A stretch of 64,000 nt of DNA from a virus. A program made the position numbers and the translations under genes. Of this stretch, positions 3,677-51,217 are shown piece by piece. Numbering within the stretch: the stretch's first letter is position 1; each line of letters starts with the position of its first letter. The stretch spans positions 71,655-135,654 of IMG/VR virus record IMGVR_UViG_3300037483_000443; one strand, written 5' to 3'. The notes beneath the pieces were generated by a model. That model ran no database searches. It saw only the letters and a program-made list of their open reading frames with translations, and was not told the origin of the DNA.

Positions 3677-4390
3677 TTAATCTCCTACTCTGATACGACG
3701 ACGAACGTCTTCTACCTGTCCAGGACCCTCTAGGTGGCGCAGCATCTTCTCGATCAAAGGATTTCGCACGATGTGACCTGATGAGAACTCAACTGTAGCG
3801 ATCTCTCCATCAACTGCGCTGAGACGATCAGTTGCCCACTTCAAGCCGTTCTCAAGACGATCTGGAAGATCTGACTGTGCACAGTCACCGGTGATGACGA
3901 TCTTCGAATCATATCCGATTCGAGTCAAGAACATCTTCATCTGCTCTTTGGTTGTGTTCTGGGCTTCATCAAGAATCATGAAAGCTCGATTTAGACTGCG
4001 TCCACGCATGTAAGCTAGAGGGAGGATTTGGATGCGGTTCTCACTGAACAGCATCTCCGAACGTTGAATTCCGACGTGACTCTCAATCGCGTCAAACAAA
4101 GGCATCAAGTAAGGGTGAATCTTTTCGTTCATGTCACCCGGTAAGTAGCCGATGTCTTCGGTAGCCACGAGCGGACGAGTCAGGATGATCTTGTCAACTT
4201 CGCCTGCGAGCAATGCTTCGAGCGCAACGTACGTGGCAAGGTGAGTCTTACCTGTACCAGCGGGTCCGGTGCAGAAGGTGACAGTTGACTCTTTGATCGT
4301 TTGGACGTAGTACTCTTGAGTTGAGTTGCATGCAGTGAGGGGCTTGATGAAGGTATCAGGGAGTTTCTTCGGGTAGTTCTTCTTGGCCAT
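3677..4390 (-). CDS. phoH: PhoH-family ATPase
   Basis: GPAGTGKT Walker A, IGYLPG, YMRGRS, ILDEAQN, TGD..QSD, HIVRN. Confidence 0.95.
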   Translation of the reverse strand: MAKKNYPKKLPDTFIKPLTACNSTQEYYVQTIKESTVTFCTGPAGTGKTHLATYVALEALLAGEVDKIILTRPLVATEDIGYLPGDMNEKIHPYLMPLFDAIESHVGIQRSEMLFSENRIQILPLAYMRGRSLNRAFMILDEAQNTTKEQMKMFLTRIGYDSKIVITGDCAQSDLPDRLENGLKWATDRLSAVDGEIATVEFSSGHIVRNPLIEKMLRHLEGPGQVEDVRRRIRVGD

Positions 4391-10037: not shown

Positions 10038-10114
10038 TGGTGCGACTGGGGAGGATCGAACTCCCGTTGACGCGGATTTAGAGTCCGCCGCTAAAACCAC
10101 TCAGCTACAATCGC
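10038..10114 (-). tRNA. tRNA-Sup(CUA), amber suppressor
   Basis: acceptor GCGATTG/CAGTCGC-A-CCA, anticodon arm GCGGA-CTCTAAA-TCCGC, T arm GGGAG-TTCGATC-CTCCC; own promoter at 10131-10159. Confidence 0.9.
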
Positions 10115-10130
10115 GTTATTTGATAAGAGA

Positions 10131-10159
10131 ATTATATCATGTGCATCTAGAAAGTAAAC
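10131..10159 (-). promoter_or_regulatory. early promoter
   Basis: GTTTAC-N17-TATAAT with extended -10 TG. Confidence 0.8.
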
Positions 10160-20395: not shown

Positions 20396-21031
20396 TTAAC
20401 CGATTTTTTCACCGGTGACATGGTTTGTTACAATGTCATCTTGGCTACGATATGTTTTAATCTTATCACCACGCATCCCAGCTCCTCGAAGATCTCTCTT
20501 TTCATCGTTCTTTCGTTTCTGCTCTTGATTAGAAAAATAACTTCTAACTTTTGCTTCAAGAAGAGATCTAGCATTTTTCTTGTTGGTATGTTGACAACGC
20601 TCTCTAGCAATTGCTTCTATTCCAGTAGGAATGTGCCGCATGACAACACATGAGTCTGTTGTATTAACATGTTGTCCACCCGGACCGCTAGATTTCTTGG
20701 TGAAGACCGTGATGTCACGATCGTTCAACTTCCACTCAGCTTCTTCTGGAACGATCATTGCTACTACCGTCACTGTTGAAGTGTGAACTCGTCCTTTACG
20801 TTCAGTGGGTGGGATTCGTTGCCACCGGTGACCGCCCGACTCTTGGAGCAATCCCCGGACGAGATTGTCTGGCCCATCGATCGTTAGATTGATTCAGCCG
20901 TGTTGCTCTTCAAAGTCAACTCGAGCGTTGATCCGCTCTGCAAATCGTGCGTAGATGGTAGCTTGGTCATTGACCAAGAGCTTTGCGTCTTCTCCGCCCT
21001 CACCTGGGCGGATCTCTAAACTGATCTTCAT
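20396..21031 (-). CDS. short RF1-type peptide chain release factor with in-frame UGA at codon 46 (20894-20896)
   Basis: ATG 21031 with AGGAG RBS: MKISLEIRPGEGGEDAK...EEQHG*INLTIDG...ESGGHRWQRIPPTERKGRVHTS...GPGGQHVNTTDS; both parts in one frame. Confidence 0.85.
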
Positions 21032-28928: not shown

Positions 28929-29021
28929 TGGTACTCCTGCTGGGTAACGCTCCCAGTACTTGCCCTCATCTAGAGCCTTGGCGGGGTATAAAGCCGCTTG
29001 TTTTCTTTAAACTACAGGAGC
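28929..29021 (-). tRNA. tRNA-Ile(UAU)-like with long variable arm
   Basis: GCGG/CCGC stem with loop TTTATAC, variable hairpin GCTCT/AGGGC, T loop AGCGTTA, CCA. Confidence 0.65.
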
Positions 29022-33827: not shown

Positions 33828-33920
33828 GGGCTCCCCAGGCAGGAGTCGAACCTGCATACCGTTCAAGACGGACTACGGCTGATTAACAGTCAGCTCTCTT
33901 ACCACACAGAGTCCCGGGGA
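33828..33920 (-). tRNA. tRNA-Asn(GUU) with long variable arm
   Basis: loop CTGTTAA, variable region with CCGT-CTTGA-ACGG, ends CC-C. Confidence 0.75.
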
Positions 33921-33947
33921 ATTGTATTACTACTGCTTATTGCAGTT

Positions 33948-35775: not shown

Positions 35776-35799
35776 GAGTGGATCATTATCACCACCCTC

Positions 35800-36095
35800 A
35801 CCTATCCGCCTATTCCGGGTCTGTACGGTTACAAAGAGTCTATTGCTAGACTAGGCGGAACTTCAGCTTAGGCTGCGAGAGCCAGAGCACCATTTGCGTC
35901 ATTAGCACTTATGGTTTTGCTACGCTTAGGGCGTTCGCCTTACCCGTTGACTTTTCATTCTATCTCACCCAATCAAATCCAGGTACACCCCCATGATGGA
36001 TCTTATTGCTCGGTGGAGGTGGCGGGAATCGAACCCGCGTCTTGAGCGCCTTACCTTAAAAGGTGTCCTTTCGGACTACAACGATATTCATACAA
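35800..36095 (-). ncRNA. ssrA: two-piece (circularly permuted) tmRNA
   Basis: T arm+CACCTCC-A-CC (36041-36012) lies upstream of 5' end GGGGGTG (35992); G3-U70; tag GCT..TAA 35906-35868 = ANDANGALALAA*; promoter 36103-36131. Confidence 0.9.
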
Positions 36096-36222
36096 CAGAA
36101 GCATTATATCACAGTCTACAATAAAGTAAACATTTGGATGATTGCGAAGGAATCAACCTAGACGCAATCATTACTACTATTTATTGGCGCCTGCTCTACC
36201 AGCTGAGCTACATCGAAGATTA

Positions 36223-46655: not shown

Positions 46656-46732
46656 GGTGATCAAGGATGGAATCGAGCCATCATCACCTATTTCTACAAA
46701 GAAACAGTGCTCTGCCATTGAGCTACATGATC
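46656..46732 (-). ncRNA. tRNA-like RNA with over-long anticodon stem and 4-nt loop
   Basis: normal D arm, CTGTTTCT-TTGT-AGAAATAG, T loop CTCGATT. Confidence 0.6.
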
Positions 46733-46824: not shown

Positions 46825-46909
46825 GGAGCGGGTGAACGGAATCAAACCGTCATACGACTTTCGTCTGCTTGCTTGGAAGGCAAGTGCCCTATCAATGGAC
46901 CACACCCGC
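46825..46909 (-). tRNA. tRNA-Gly(UCC) with long variable arm
   Basis: loop CTTCCAA, variable hairpin GAC-GAAA-GTC, ends CC-T. Confidence 0.75.
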
Positions 46910-48818: not shown

Positions 48819-49023
48819 CGGTTTCTCCTTTAGATTGCTGCAATTTGGTCTGCAAAGTCATACATCTCTTTGTTCATTGATCTCATTCCTTCTTCATTAG
48901 AACGAGTCGTAATAAGATGATCGGTGTAATAGTCCCATTCACGATACAAAGTTTCACGAATGAAGAAGCGAATATCATCGAGCTCTTGTTGCGTCAAAGC
49001 AATAGTGTCATCATCAATTCGTT

Positions 49024-49356
49024 TCATGCTGTCTTCTCCTGGTTAAAAGTGATCCATGCTTCACAAAGTGTACGGCTTTCATCTTCAGCGTACAGCTCTG
49101 CGGTTTCTTTGATGAGGCTAATGCGAAGAGCAATTCCCTTCCTCTTAGACATGATGCCGTAGAGACCGCTCTTGCTGATTTCTCCTCTCTGCAGAGGACG
49201 TCCGAGGTGAAAGGTTACTCGCTCTGGACGATACTGTGGCTTATCTTTGCAGATGAAGTGAGCCAGATCTCGACTAAACGTGAGACGGTAGAGCTTCTTG
49301 TCATCACGAACTGCCCAGATCTTCTCAGATAGCTTACAGCTTCCAGAGCAGCTCAT
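49024..49356 (-). CDS. hypothetical protein
   Basis: MSCSGS start overlaps (ATGA) the stop of the Pth2-like gene. Confidence 0.65.
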   Translation of the reverse strand: MSCSGSCKLSEKIWAVRDDKKLYRLTFSRDLAHFICKDKPQYRPERVTFHLGRPLQRGEISKSGLYGIMSKRKGIALRISLIKETAELYAEDESRTLCEAWITFNQEKTA

Positions 49357-49715
49357 GATTGTTCTCCTGCCTTGTAGAGACGATACTTCTTGAAGTGATG
49401 ACGCTGCTCTGCCGTGAGGGGCACGGTAGCAAAAGAAGTATGGCTTGGTAGATAGCCTAGATTGTCGTCGGGCTCGTAGAAGAGAGCACAATCGATACCT
49501 TGTGAGGCTATGTGATCATGAGCTTTGAGGAGATGTTCCTCATCGCGAGCTTCGAGTAGAATGAGAGAAGTAGTCTCGTTGAACTTCTTACCAGCGAGAC
49601 CGGCTTTGAGACCTGCTTCAAGAGTTGCGTGCGCAGCTTGAACGATTTGCTGTGCAGCTGGGAGATCCTTGCGAATGAATGTGTAGCAGTAAGTCTTATC
49701 AGAAATCTACAGCAT
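49353..49715 (-). CDS. Pth2-like peptidyl-tRNA hydrolase family protein with UAG at codon 3
   Basis: AAGGAG-N5-ATG CTG TAG ATT...; downstream 117 open codons YTFIRKDLPAAQQIVQAAHA...FYEPD...TVPL; absent from ORF track. Confidence 0.8.
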
Positions 49716-49768
49716 GATTACTCCTTGGTTGGTTGAACTACAAAATTATTTATCGTTTAAGAAGATTC

Positions 49769-49798
49769 ATTATAACACAGTTGTCTTAGAAAGTAAAC
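49769..49798 (-). promoter_or_regulatory. early promoter of the Pth2-like gene
   Basis: GTTTAC-N18-TATAAT; late-type GATAAATA at ~49747-49754. Confidence 0.75.
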
Positions 49799-49807
49799 AA
49801 CTATGTA

Positions 49808-51217
49808 TTACAACATCGCGTGAACTTCACCCTTGTCGCAGTCCACACACACATCCATAAATTTTGTGTAGATTTTTGTTGCATTATCAAGCCGTAAGAT
49901 CTTAACGTTGAATTCACGTCCTACAGTAGCAAGGTGACATAGCTTACCACCAACCTCAGTGATCACAGCACCCTTTCCGTTTTTGCATGCAGATAGCATC
50001 GCGATCTCATAATCGGGGCTTGCCGAAGGAATAACGATGATAGATCCTTCAGGGACTGATTCTCCAGGTTTTGGCAGAACAACCCGCCCGATTGTAGTAC
50101 CCTTACCTGCAAGCACTGTACACTCAAAGCCGAGAAGCTCACGCTGAAGTTCATGCATTGCGTCGTACGCAGAACTAACGATTGGATTGCGATCGCCACC
50201 AATCATATCATACCACGTTTCGATCTCTAAACCAGCGCCGAGCAACCAATCAGTATGATATGGGTCATCATTGTACATCTTCCAACCGCTGGAAGATACA
50301 ACACTCCACGGTACGGTCATCATGTGACGGCTTCTAATTTGAAGCGCCCAACCTTCAAAAGCTCCTCGTGGAACACGAAGTTCACTTGTTTTGTTTCCGT
50401 TCTTGTCTTTGAGAGATAGAGTCATCCAACCCCTATCTCCGAGAGAATTTGCTTGTTCGATGATTTCTTTGCGAGCAGCTTCTATTCGAGCTTCATGTAT
50501 CTTCTTCATGACAGCTGCGACTCGCTCGACGCGTTCTGAATCTGAACGCTCTTCATCAAGAGCGACAATTGAAACGACTTCTTCCGTGATCTCATTATCT
50601 TCGGCTTCCCACCCACGACGATAGAAGAAGTGTCCAAACTTCAATGCATTATCTACCGATTCTTGTGGAGTGGTATTTTTTGTCATCCAAAGAGGGGGAA
50701 GACCTTCTGCTATCTTGAATAGAACGATGGTGTCTACATTTCCGTACTTCACGGTAAGCGCAAGATCTTTGAATTGATTATCAGCGTAAAATAGACTGCG
50801 TTTATAGCTGAATTCTTGTAGATCTTTACGATCCAGGCATGGGAGAGACCCACTGTTCAAGTATTCTGCTGCCCAGAGAGCATCTTCACGACCCCAGCGA
50901 TCGACGATTGCGTATGGTATGTAGCACTTGTGATCAGTGTGTTCATAGAAGTGGCCGTAAGCATAGCCTAGACGCTCGAGATATTCTTCAGCATCGTCAT
51001 CGACTAACTGGATTCCTTCTGGATCTTCAAATGATTGAATTCCAGTAAGACGCTTGGACCCACTAAGAATCGAGATTGCGATATCATGAGTCATACCATC
51101 AACATCGCGAATGAGGGCATTCAGTGAATAATCCCAACGCCCTTCCACGACGAGGTCTCGAAAGAAATCGGTCAAAAAATCGCCTGAAATAGAGAAGTGA
51201 ACAACTGTTTGTGTCAT
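49808..51217 (-). CDS. protein with C-terminal PEP-utilising swivelling phosphohistidine domain
   Basis: GAVITEVGGKLCHLATVGREFNV matches the GG..SHAAIVARE signature. Confidence 0.7.
   Translation of the reverse strand: MTQTVVHFSISGDFLTDFFRDLVVEGRWDYSLNALIRDVDGMTHDIAISILSGSKRLTGIQSFEDPEGIQLVDDDAEEYLERLGYAYGHFYEHTDHKCYIPYAIVDRWGREDALWAAEYLNSGSLPCLDRKDLQEFSYKRSLFYADNQFKDLALTVKYGNVDTIVLFKIAEGLPPLWMTKNTTPQESVDNALKFGHFFYRRGWEAEDNEITEEVVSIVALDEERSDSERVERVAAVMKKIHEARIEAARKEIIEQANSLGDRGWMTLSLKDKNGNKTSELRVPRGAFEGWALQIRSRHMMTVPWSVVSSSGWKMYNDDPYHTDWLLGAGLEIETWYDMIGGDRNPIVSSAYDAMHELQRELLGFECTVLAGKGTTIGRVVLPKPGESVPEGSIIVIPSASPDYEIAMLSACKNGKGAVITEVGGKLCHLATVGREFNVKILRLDNATKIYTKFMDVCVDCDKGEVHAML

What the first reader, a model, noticed from the sequence alone, without database searches (positions are those of the whole stretch)
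49353..49715. Hidden Pth2-like gene beginning ATG-CTG-TAG
A strong RBS (AAGGAG, 5 nt spacer) and ATG at 49715 are followed by CTG then TAG (49707-49709), then 117 open codons with Pth2-family features (RKDL, QAAHA, FYEPD, TVPL) ending in a TGA that overlaps the next ATG. No ATG/GTG/TTG can start the domain after the stop, so gene callers miss it. It has an early and a late-type promoter. A stop at codon 3 is an economical switch: a dipeptide by default, enzyme on amber readthrough.
Basis: partly seen in the sequence, partly recalled or inferred. Interest (0 to 1): 0.88.

Follow-up and report, generated by a model that had tools for sequence, protein, structure and literature searches.

The report
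Amber-gated phage Pth2-like gene
A large phage hides a small tRNA-hydrolase-like gene behind a UAG stop at its third codon and also carries a tRNA that reads UAG, a lock-and-key layout shared by many distant phages, so the enzyme is probably made only when that tRNA overrides the stop.

Summary
The first in-frame canonical start lies 94 codons in. The product has a Pth2 fold.

The TAG is not decay. Of 96 homologous loci classified, 75 have ATG, 0-12 codons, then TAG in frame before the domain. One has TAA, none TGA, and 20 are ungated. On a tree the ungated forms nest inside gated clades.

The window encodes a tRNA with anticodon CUA 39.6 kb away, behind the same promoter class. All 9 gated GenBank phages checked carry such a tRNA; ungated RaK2 showed none.

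The contig is not TAG-recoded overall. The codon after TAG is usually not a start, so the ATT-start rival fails.

Best reading: programmed amber suppression by the phage's own tRNA gates this enzyme. This is inferred, not shown.

XacN1's authors reported no target for its suppressor tRNAs; its ORF364 has the same gate.

I found no publication of the gate. This scan has noted the same module before on other DNA.

The parts
49769..49797 (-). Sigma-70-type promoter: TTTACT, 17 nt, TATAAT, with TG before the -10 element
   Evidence: scores it 10 of 12. It belongs to a class of 16 such promoters in the window, all on the minus strand, against 0.02 expected by chance.
49721..49726 (-). Shine-Dalgarno AAGGAG, 5 nt before the ATG
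   Evidence: An SD-like motif precedes the leader ATG in 47 of 57 gated clusters.
49710..49715 (-). Leader ATG-CTG (Met-Leu)
   Evidence: ATG plus one sense codon is the commonest leader: 38 of 57 gated clusters.
49707..49709 (-). In-frame TAG at codon 3: the gate
   Evidence: A TAG at the equivalent place is kept in 75 of 96 homologous loci.
49353..49706 (-). Pth2-like domain: 117 codons plus a TGA that overlaps the next gene's ATG
   Evidence: Pfam PTH2 E 9.6e-5. AlphaFold model pLDDT 88, pTM 0.82. The top Foldseek PDB matches are Pth2 structures, TM-score up to 0.80. In two distant runs, 11 of 12 differences are at third codon positions.
10038..10114 (-). tRNA with anticodon CUA (amber suppressor): loop CU-CUA-AA, A73, encoded CCA. 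This is the presumed key.
   Evidence: ARAGORN, (the program labels it 'Pyl'). Sequence read. It is the only CUA tRNA among 43 tRNAs in the contig.
10131..10158 (-). Promoter of the tRNA(CUA), same class as the one before the Pth2-like gene
   Evidence: TTTACTTTCTA-N-TATAAT occurs exactly twice in the window: here and at 49797-49769.

Best explanation
This is a real, selected gene for a Pth2-fold enzyme, most likely a hydrolase acting at tRNA 3' ends. Its translation is locked by a UAG at codon 3.

How I think it works:
1. Ribosomes start at the SD-led ATG and make fMet-Leu.
2. They meet UAG. By default release factor 1 ends translation after a dipeptide.
3. When the phage's own tRNA(CUA), encoded 39.6 kb away behind the same promoter class, is made and charged, it inserts an amino acid at UAG.
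4. The 120-residue enzyme is then completed.

So tRNA and gene form a key-and-lock pair, and enzyme output follows suppressor activity.

Shown here:
- the sequence layout;
- the Pth2 fold;
- conservation of TAG across deep divergence;
- co-occurrence with tRNA(CUA);
- absence of contig-wide recoding.

Inferred:
- that the tRNA is expressed and charged;
- that it reads this UAG;
- which amino acid it inserts;
- the enzyme's substrate.

Why the lock exists is open. My order of preference:
(a) A feed-forward or timing gate: the enzyme appears only once phage tRNAs work.
(b) Output proportional to read-through: clean-up of peptidyl-tRNA scales with the trouble the suppressor causes.
(c) Negative feedback: an enzyme that strips charged tRNAs limits its own synthesis.
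For: 1. Layout and lack of any canonical start.

2. Gate conservation.
- 9 of 10 GenBank phages inspected have SD-ATG-(1-2 codons)-TAG in frame before the domain: RsoM2USA, CBB, fHe-Yen9-03, BF, ME3, Arash, LR756511, XacN1 and Xoo-sp13. RaK2 does not.
- Over all 96 loci classified: TAG gate 75, TAA 1, TGA 0, ungated 20.
- Of the 88 loci that could be clustered, 70 clusters form at 90% identity: 57 TAG-gated, 8 plain, 4 fused without a gate, 1 TAA (with L163 relabelled by eye).

3. Stop identity. Long ORFs of this contig end in TAA 66, TGA 47 and TAG 14 of 127. A gate that any stop could serve would not be TAG nearly every time.

4. The key.
- The window has a tRNA(CUA).
- All 9 gated GenBank phages have one.
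- The complete 345-kb relative G001 has one about 40 kb from its gene, as here.
- Among gated loci of at least 6 kb, 17 of 24 hold a tRNA(CUA) within 3-4 kb. Among ungated loci of that size, 1 of 6 does.
- RaK2 (ungated) showed none by pattern plus ARAGORN.

5. Tree of 77 rows. Gated forms lie on both sides of the midpoint root. Ungated forms nest inside gated clades and need 5-6 changes. The one TAA-gated locus is sister to a TAG-gated one with 100/100 support.

6. Sequence context. The base after TAG is G 31, A 23, C 3, T 0 of 57. From memory, a purine there favours amber suppression in E. coli (Bossi 1983), and the loop CU-CUA-AA fits Yarus's 'extended anticodon'.

7. The contig is not TAG-recoded overall. 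In-frame stops flanked by at least 100 open codons on both sides: TAA 9, TGA 3, TAG 0.

8. The frame is under purifying selection.
Against: - Nothing is experimental. No RNA run holds the stretch, and no proteome was available.
- TAG still ends about 11% of long ORFs here (14 of 127), so a strong suppressor would be costly.
- The same contig encodes an RF1-type release-factor-like gene. If functional, it would oppose suppression.
- The link between tRNA and gene is not only the gate. Six ungated lineages (L106, L150, L154, L155, L171, L173) sit beside a tRNA(CUA), and G005 has an ungated gene plus a tRNA(CUA).
- 7 of 24 gated loci of at least 6 kb show no tRNA(CUA) within the locus. It may lie further away, as it does here.
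- In 5 of 57 gated clusters the codon right after TAG is itself ATG (2) or GTG (3). XacN1 and Xoo-sp13 have an ATG 4 codons after the TAG. In those phages initiation past the gate is possible.
- The catalytic Lys and Asp of Pth2 (recalled) align with Gln19 and Glu78, so the chemistry or substrate may differ.
Confidence: 0.78

Rival explanations
1. Termination-reinitiation. The SD-ATG-X-TAG unit is a minigene that loads ribosomes. After release at TAG the ribosome restarts at the next codon or nearby, without any suppressor tRNA.
For: A strong SD and ATG sit right at the stop. In 5 of 57 gated clusters the next codon is ATG or GTG. XacN1 and Xoo-sp13 have an ATG 4 codons after the TAG. Restarts after termination are known in bacteria (recalled: Adhin and van Duin 1990).
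Against: Any stop codon would serve this mechanism, yet the gate is TAG in 75 loci, TAA in 1 and TGA in 0. This holds although TAG is the rarest stop in this contig. The next codon is a non-start (GTT, GTA, GTC, AAC, ACN, CTG and others) in most clusters. In the window the first canonical start is 94 codons away. This rival does not explain the co-occurrence with tRNA(CUA).
Confidence: 0.1
2. Non-canonical initiation at the ATT (codon 4), independent of the upstream ATG and TAG.
For: ATT follows the TAG in the window, RsoM2USA, fHe-Yen9-03 and ME3. AUU is a known rare start in E. coli, as in infC (recalled).
Against: ATT follows TAG in only 9 of 57 gated clusters. GTT (16), GTA (7), AAC (4), GTC (4) and others take its place. 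The SD is spaced for the ATG: 5 nt to ATG, 14 nt to ATT. This rival gives no reason to keep an in-frame ATG-X-TAG across about 57 diverged clusters.
Confidence: 0.04
3. A decaying pseudogene, a nonsense mutation, or an assembly error in this one contig.
For: There is a stop at codon 3, and the gene is not called by standard tools.
Against: The same stop sits at the same place in 75 of 96 loci, down to about 30% protein identity. There is no other stop or frameshift in 117 codons. Differences in relatives fall on third codon positions, 11 of 12. Two runs give identical contigs, though they may be the source of this DNA.
Confidence: 0.02
4. The phage reads TAG as a sense codon throughout (genetic code 15), and this gene is just one of many recoded genes.
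For: A tRNA(CUA) is present. Code-15 phages with such tRNAs are known (bioRxiv 10.1101/2021.08.26.457843; search listing and abstract seen).
Against: No in-frame TAG is flanked by at least 100 open codons on both sides, against 9 for TAA and 3 for TGA. TAG ends 14 of 127 long ORFs. Only one other SD-ATG-leader-TAG-ORF candidate exists in the 135-kb contig, and it has a canonical start 10 codons in. The contig is only part of the genome.
Confidence: 0.03

Closest known systems
Stop-codon-recoded phages with their own suppressor tRNAs (TAG read as Gln, 'code 15': crAss-like and Lak phages; Borges et al., bioRxiv 10.1101/2021.08.26.457843, search listing and abstract seen)
   Same: A phage-encoded tRNA(CUA) reads in-frame TAG codons in phage genes, and the recoding has been proposed to regulate when genes are translated.
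   Different: In those phages many genes, often late ones, are recoded and code-11 gene calls fragment. Here the rest of the contig uses the standard code. One gene is locked, at its third codon. In some relatives a second gene for an HD-like partner is locked too. The search listing shows no occurrence of 'peptidyl-tRNA hydrolase' in that preprint.
prfB (release factor 2) autoregulation through an early in-frame UGA (recalled from established knowledge)
   Same: An in-frame stop early in the mRNA of a translation-related protein serves as a sensor that sets how much full-length product is made.
   Different: prfB needs a +1 frameshift and senses its own product. Here the frame continues unchanged, and what is sensed is a separate tRNA gene. 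Feedback by the product is only a hypothesis.
Archaeal/eukaryotic peptidyl-tRNA hydrolase Pth2 (Pfam PF01981). Its presence in jumbo phages was noted by Iyer et al. 2021, PMC7824862 (passages read)
   Same: Same fold: Foldseek matches 2zv3, 1q7s, 1wn2, 3erj, 1rlk and 1xty at E 7.7e-7 to 6.8e-5, with 1rzw at 8.6e-4 and TM-score up to 0.80. It shares the R-x-D-L ... Q-x-x-H-A motif. Iyer et al. propose a role for phage PTH2 in ribosome rescue after tRNA cleavage.
   Different: Only borderline by sequence: 23.0 bits at a cut-off of 23, and far below the NCBIfam equivalog cut-offs. The positions of the Pth2 Lys and Asp hold Gln19 and Glu78. That paper has no occurrence of 'suppressor' or 'stop codon'.
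Lambda bar minigenes and peptidyl-tRNA drop-off (recalled: Guarneros, Buckingham and Ehrenberg laboratories)
   Same: SD-ATG-one codon-stop is the classic minigene layout. Such minigenes release peptidyl-tRNA, the substrate of peptidyl-tRNA hydrolases.
   Different: bar minigenes are free-standing and end in other stops. Here the minigene is in frame with, and fused to, a hydrolase-like ORF. It always ends in TAG and travels with a tRNA(CUA).
Engineered amber-suppressor gates, for example the suppressor-tRNA feed-forward loop of PMC7969014 (search listing and abstract seen)
   Same: A gene carrying an early amber codon is expressed only when a suppressor tRNA is also expressed, which removes leaky expression.
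   Different: That circuit is man-made. This one appears to be a natural counterpart kept across many phage lineages.

Membership tests
Pth2 peptidyl-tRNA hydrolase (PF01981) | Profile match at the curated threshold | tested here: inconclusive
   Pfam scores 23.0 bits against a cut-off of 23, E 9.6e-5. The NCBIfam Pth2 equivalogs score 18.1 against 126 and 14.4 against 82. It is related, but not an equivalog.
Pth2 peptidyl-tRNA hydrolase (PF01981) | Pth2 alpha/beta fold | tested here: met
   Model pLDDT 88, pTM 0.82. All 15 Foldseek PDB matches with E at or below 0.001 are Pth2 entries or Atu0240, with TM-score up to 0.80.
Pth2 peptidyl-tRNA hydrolase (PF01981) | Catalytic Lys (GK motif) and Asp (DAG-x-T motif). 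The residues are recalled from work on Sulfolobus Pth2 and were not checked in a paper here. | tested here: not met
   In the profile alignment to 2zv3, nearly invariant Gln19 falls at the Lys position and invariant Glu78 at the Asp position. D14, Q23 and H26 are shared. The alignment is weak (E 0.018), so this is provisional.
Pth2 peptidyl-tRNA hydrolase (PF01981) | Hydrolysis of peptidyl- or N-acyl-aminoacyl-tRNA | not testable with these tools
   Needs an enzyme assay.
Programmed amber suppression by a cognate phage tRNA | In-frame TAG conserved among homologues at the same place | tested here: met
   75 of 96 loci, and 57 of 70 clusters at 90% identity.
Programmed amber suppression by a cognate phage tRNA | A tRNA with anticodon CUA in the same genome | tested here: met
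   Window 10038-10114. Also present in 9 of 9 gated GenBank phages.
Programmed amber suppression by a cognate phage tRNA | No other way to start the ORF | tested here: met
   In the window the first canonical start is 94 codons in. This is not met in the minority of relatives that have ATG or GTG after the TAG.
Programmed amber suppression by a cognate phage tRNA | Full-length protein with a residue at the TAG position; the tRNA expressed and charged | not testable with these tools
   No RNA holder was listed. No proteomics were available. The amino-acid identity of the tRNA is unresolved: its best match among the phage's own tRNAs is 69%.
Genome-wide TAG reassignment (code 15) | Many genes interrupted by in-frame TAG; TAG not used as a stop | tested here: not met
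   on the 135-kb contig only.
prfB-type frameshift autoregulation | The ORF continues in the +1 frame after the stop | tested here: not met
   The domain continues in the same frame as the ATG.

The most novel reading that the evidence does not exclude
The tRNA(CUA) is not a general decoder. It is a dedicated reporter tRNA, and together with the UAG at codon 3 it forms a self-contained sensor-effector loop for tRNA-end enzymes. The amount of Pth2-like enzyme (and, in relatives, of the HD-like partner) is set by how much charged suppressor reaches the ribosome. The enzyme in turn acts on charged or peptidyl-tRNA.

That would be a natural translational homeostat, comparable in logic to prfB but built from a tRNA key. 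It would also name the long-sought target of the 'orphan' suppressor tRNAs of standard-code jumbo phages such as XacN1.
Probability: 0.25. Interest if true: 0.9.

Novelty: new variant of a known kind. Interest (0 to 1): 0.8.

Why it matters
1. It answers a question left open in print. The XacN1 paper reports two suppressor tRNA(CUA) genes. It says that read-through of 18 amber stops in silico revealed no target gene (PMC5852040, passage read). The RsoM2USA paper names no target either (PMC8504454, passage read). Both phages carry the gate described here, at the start of a gene rather than at its end.

2. It would be a natural case of single-gene control by a suppressor tRNA in phages that otherwise keep the standard code. 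Synthetic biologists have built the same logic by hand.

3. It corrects annotation. The gene is missing or truncated in at least six GenBank phage records.

4. It is directly testable. Several carriers are cultured: RsoM2USA, CBB, BF, ME3, Arash and XacN1.

Tried and rejected
- ATT start: rejected, because the codon after TAG is not conserved as a start.
- Decay or sequencing error: rejected.
- Contig-wide code 15: rejected for this contig.
- A read-through-stimulating RNA structure around the TAG: none. The fold of 49740-49630 gives -18.6 kcal/mol, z +0.61.
- 'Late-type' promoter: its motif is not recurrent.
- Extra SD-ATG-(0-3 codons)-TAG minigenes in the contig: no excess. Distinct sites: TAG 6, TAA 4, TGA 7.
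- HD-like partner gene: not found in this contig by tblastn (best E 0.072) or by HMM (best E 3.2). It was also not found in the complete relative G001; the same query finds RsoM2USA at E 9e-36.
- Covariation test with the opal-suppressor phage Atu_ph07: it has no homologue of this family at E up to 1, so there is no test.
- Amino-acid identity of the tRNA(CUA): unresolved. Its anticodon stem-loop equals that of the phage tRNA-Lys(CUU) except for position 36, but overall identity to any phage tRNA is at most 69%. The 54 distinct suppressor tRNAs from the loci (52 with anticodon CUA, 2 with UUA) are heterogeneous, with G1-C72/A73 commonest.
- Database proteins P0001-P0003, P0006, P0008, P0018 and P0019 show Q exactly at the TAG column.
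- RNA evidence: no RNA holder was listed.
- Nearest DNA in GenBank phages: megablast of 49000-50200 found no match.
- The blastn search with the tRNA found only weak partial hits.
- Supplements were not opened. XacN1 Table S3 and RsoM2USA Table 6 list tRNAs and might bear on tRNA identity.
- Claim of no prior description. It rests (0 papers hold 'suppressor tRNA' + 'PTH2' + 'phage') and on passages read. Subscription journals are largely outside that library.

Full report
**What is there**

On the minus strand the window reads as follows:
- AAGGAG at 49726-49721, then TAATC.
- ATG (49715-49713), CTG, TAG (49709-49707).
- 117 sense codons, 49706-49356.
- TGA (49355-49353), which overlaps the ATG of the next gene.

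After the TAG the first in-frame ATG, GTG or TTG is 94 codons in. The domain therefore cannot be made from a canonical start.

A sigma-70-type promoter (TTTACT, 17 nt, TATAAT) lies at 49797-49769. It belongs to a class of 16 near-identical promoters in the window. All are on the minus strand, against 0.02 expected by chance.

**What the protein is**

- Pfam PTH2 matches at E 9.6e-5 with 23.0 bits, exactly at the cut-off.
- The NCBIfam Pth2 equivalogs score far below their cut-offs.
- PHROGs places it in two families of unknown function.
- An AlphaFold model built on a 20-sequence alignment has pLDDT 88 and pTM 0.82.
- All 15 Foldseek matches in the PDB with E at or below 0.001 are Pth2 structures or Atu0240, with TM-score up to 0.80.
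- In a profile alignment to MJ0051, the R-x-D-L and Q-x-x-H-A motifs are shared. The positions that I recall as the catalytic Lys and Asp of Pth2 hold nearly invariant Gln19 and invariant Glu78.

So it has a Pth2 fold and probably acts on tRNA 3' ends. It is not a plain Pth2 equivalog.

**The stop is conserved**

tblastn found homologues in 33 GenBank phage records, mostly jumbo phages. I inspected ten of them.

| Phage | Start of the gene |
|---|---|
| RsoM2USA | ML* |
| CBB | MAQ* |
| fHe-Yen9-03 | MSH* |
| BF | MTH* |
| ME3 | MT* |
| Arash | ML* |
| LR756511 (uncultured, 595 kb) | MTH* |
| XacN1 | MK*TIKA-M..., before an HD-like + Pth2-like fusion |
| Xoo-sp13 | MKK*NFNL-M..., before the same fusion |
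| RaK2 | plain ATG start, no gate |

Nine of the ten have an SD-led ATG, one or two codons, then TAG in frame before the domain. In these records the gene is unannotated or truncated.

A scan of IMG/VR gave 14 loci. A metagenome scan gave 68. A scan of one genome per prokaryotic species gave 3, all in MAGs.

Over all 96 loci, window included:
- 75 have the TAG gate;
- 1 has TAA;
- 0 have TGA;
- 20 are ungated: 14 plain, 4 fused to other domains, and 2 MAG loci (L163 relabelled by eye).

Duplicates exist. Of the 88 loci that could be clustered, 70 clusters form at 90% identity. Of these, 57 are TAG-gated, 8 plain, 4 fused and 1 TAA-gated. Five GenBank loci fell outside the motif used for clustering.

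Features of the 57 gated clusters:
- The leader is ATG plus one sense codon in 38. The range is 0-12 sense codons.
- An SD-like motif precedes the ATG in 47.
- The base after TAG is G 31, A 23, C 3, T 0.

A maximum-likelihood tree of 77 rows puts gated forms on both sides of the midpoint root. Ungated forms nest within gated clades and need 5-6 changes. The TAA-gated locus is sister to a TAG-gated one. The root is not known. Even so, the simplest reading is an old gate with several losses.

**The key**

- ARAGORN finds 43 tRNAs and a tmRNA in the contig. Among them is one tRNA with anticodon CUA at window 10038-10114.
- That tRNA has the loop CU-CUA-AA, A73 and an encoded CCA. It has its own promoter of the same class, at 10158-10131.
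- It lies 39.6 kb from the gene. The complete 345-kb relative G001 has the same spacing.
- All nine gated GenBank phages carry a tRNA(CUA), often within 0.5-8 kb of the gene.
- RaK2 showed none by the pattern I used. I estimate that this pattern would miss roughly 15% of such tRNAs, judging from the T-loops.
- In the DNA-scan loci of at least 6 kb, 17 of 24 gated clusters and 1 of 6 ungated clusters hold a tRNA(CUA) within the 3-4 kb flanks.

**Not a recoded genome**

- No in-frame TAG in the contig is flanked by at least 100 open codons on both sides. TAA has 9 such cases and TGA 3.
- TAG ends 14 of 127 long ORFs.
- The layout SD-ATG-leader-stop-long ORF occurs twice with TAG. The second case has a canonical start 10 codons in.

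**Mechanism**

The best-supported reading is programmed amber suppression. By default translation yields a dipeptide. When the phage tRNA(CUA) is made and charged, the full enzyme is made.

The evidence is comparative: the exclusive use of TAG, its deep conservation, the travelling tRNA, and the purine after the stop.

No RNA or protein data were available. No RNA structure stands out around the stop.

Points against are given in full in the Against line. The main ones are:
- the cost of suppression for genes that end in TAG;
- an RF1-type factor gene in the same contig;
- ungated relatives that still sit next to a tRNA(CUA);
- a minority of relatives with ATG or GTG just after the TAG.

**Wider module**

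The N-terminal half of XacN1 ORF364 has no Pfam match but contains an H-D-I/C-G-K-P motif. In many relatives this HD-like domain is a separate gene just downstream of the Pth2-like gene.

That partner gene is itself TAG-gated in some of them:
- RsoM2USA (MKS*), L101 (MM*), L132 (ML*), L135 (MM*) and L137 (ML*);
- CBB, fHe-Yen9-03 and BF have an internal TAG at codon 34.

The partner is absent from this contig and from G001.

**Literature**

- The XacN1 authors state that they could not identify genes targeted by its suppressor tRNAs (PMC5852040, passage read).
- The RsoM2USA paper notes the suppressor without naming a target (PMC8504454, passage read).
- Iyer et al. noted PTH2 in jumbo phages and proposed a role in ribosome rescue. 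Their text has no occurrence of 'suppressor' or 'stop codon' (PMC7824862, passages read).
- Searches found no description of the gate.

**Earlier notes of this scan**

This scan has noted the same module on other DNA several times. I reached the reading before that look-up. The earlier notes agree with it. One of them gave the lead to check the HD-like partner for its own gate.

**Verdict**

This is a new variant of known stop-codon recoding, and it can be tested directly in cultured phages.

Noticed in passing
window 20396-21031 (-): A release-factor-like gene with one in-frame TGA at codon 46. PCRF-domain matches lie on both sides of the stop, and an RF-1 domain lies downstream. It has a PPT tripeptide where RF1 has its PxT motif, and GGQ is present. 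It is short at the N-terminus. The contig has no tRNA(UCA).
   Followed up: partly
window 35777-36103 (-): A phage-encoded tmRNA with tag peptide ANDANGALALAA. It sits in the same contig as the suppressor tRNA, the Pth2-like gene and the RF-like gene.
   Followed up: no
window 10131-60775 (-): Sixteen near-identical promoters with consensus about GTTTACTTTCTTGAG-N5-TGATATAAT, all on the minus strand. Expected by chance: 0.02.
   Followed up: partly
window 46656-46732, 28929-29021, 33828-33921, 46825-46909 (-): Odd tRNA calls by ARAGORN: one with a four-base anticodon (ttgt), and three over-long ones (Ile-tat 93 nt, Asn-gtt 94 nt, Gly-tcc 85 nt) that may hold inserts.
   Followed up: no
L034 1-903 (XacN1 ORF364); L038 1-909 (Xoo-sp13_327): The HD-like + Pth2-like fusion genes are preceded in frame by SD-ATG-AAG-TAG (XacN1) and SD-ATG-AAG-AAG-TAG (Xoo-sp13), a few codons before the annotated ATG. 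This is a candidate target for XacN1's 'orphan' suppressor tRNAs.
   Followed up: yes
L001 2391-2975 (RsoM2USA_91); L002-L004 about 1863-2381; L101, L132, L135, L137: The HD-like partner gene downstream of the Pth2-like gene is itself TAG-gated in RsoM2USA and four metagenome loci (leaders MKS*, MM*, ML*, MM*, ML*). In CBB, fHe-Yen9-03 and BF it has an internal TAG at codon 34, where it is annotated as two small genes.
   Followed up: partly
L162 about 430-704; L160 about 3960-4237: One locus has the gate as TAA (MKKELDNQ-TAA) and is sister to a TAG-gated locus (MKKDLTTL-TAG). Its contig is only 1.4 kb, so a matching tRNA(UUA) could not be sought. tRNAs with anticodon TTA occur next to the family in L041 and L147.
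   Followed up: partly
L150, L155, L171 (also L106, L154, L173): Ungated members that still lie directly beside a tRNA(CUA). Three of them (L150, L155, L171) carry a basic N-terminal extension of about 25-30 residues (MK[RH]V...) instead of the gate.
   Followed up: no
L042/L043 5305-5384: ARAGORN calls a tRNA with a four-base anticodon 'ctag' immediately after a tRNA(CUA).
   Followed up: no
genome contig 10983-10966 (-), outside the window: A second SD-ATG-(4 codons)-TAG followed by 90 open codons, with a canonical start 10 codons in. It is probably an ordinary gene start.
   Followed up: no
window 49808-51217 (-): The gene upstream of the Pth2-like gene encodes a 469-residue protein with a C-terminal PEP-utilising-enzyme mobile domain (E 3.7e-9). 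The 110-residue gene downstream (49024-49356) has no Pfam match.
   Followed up: partly
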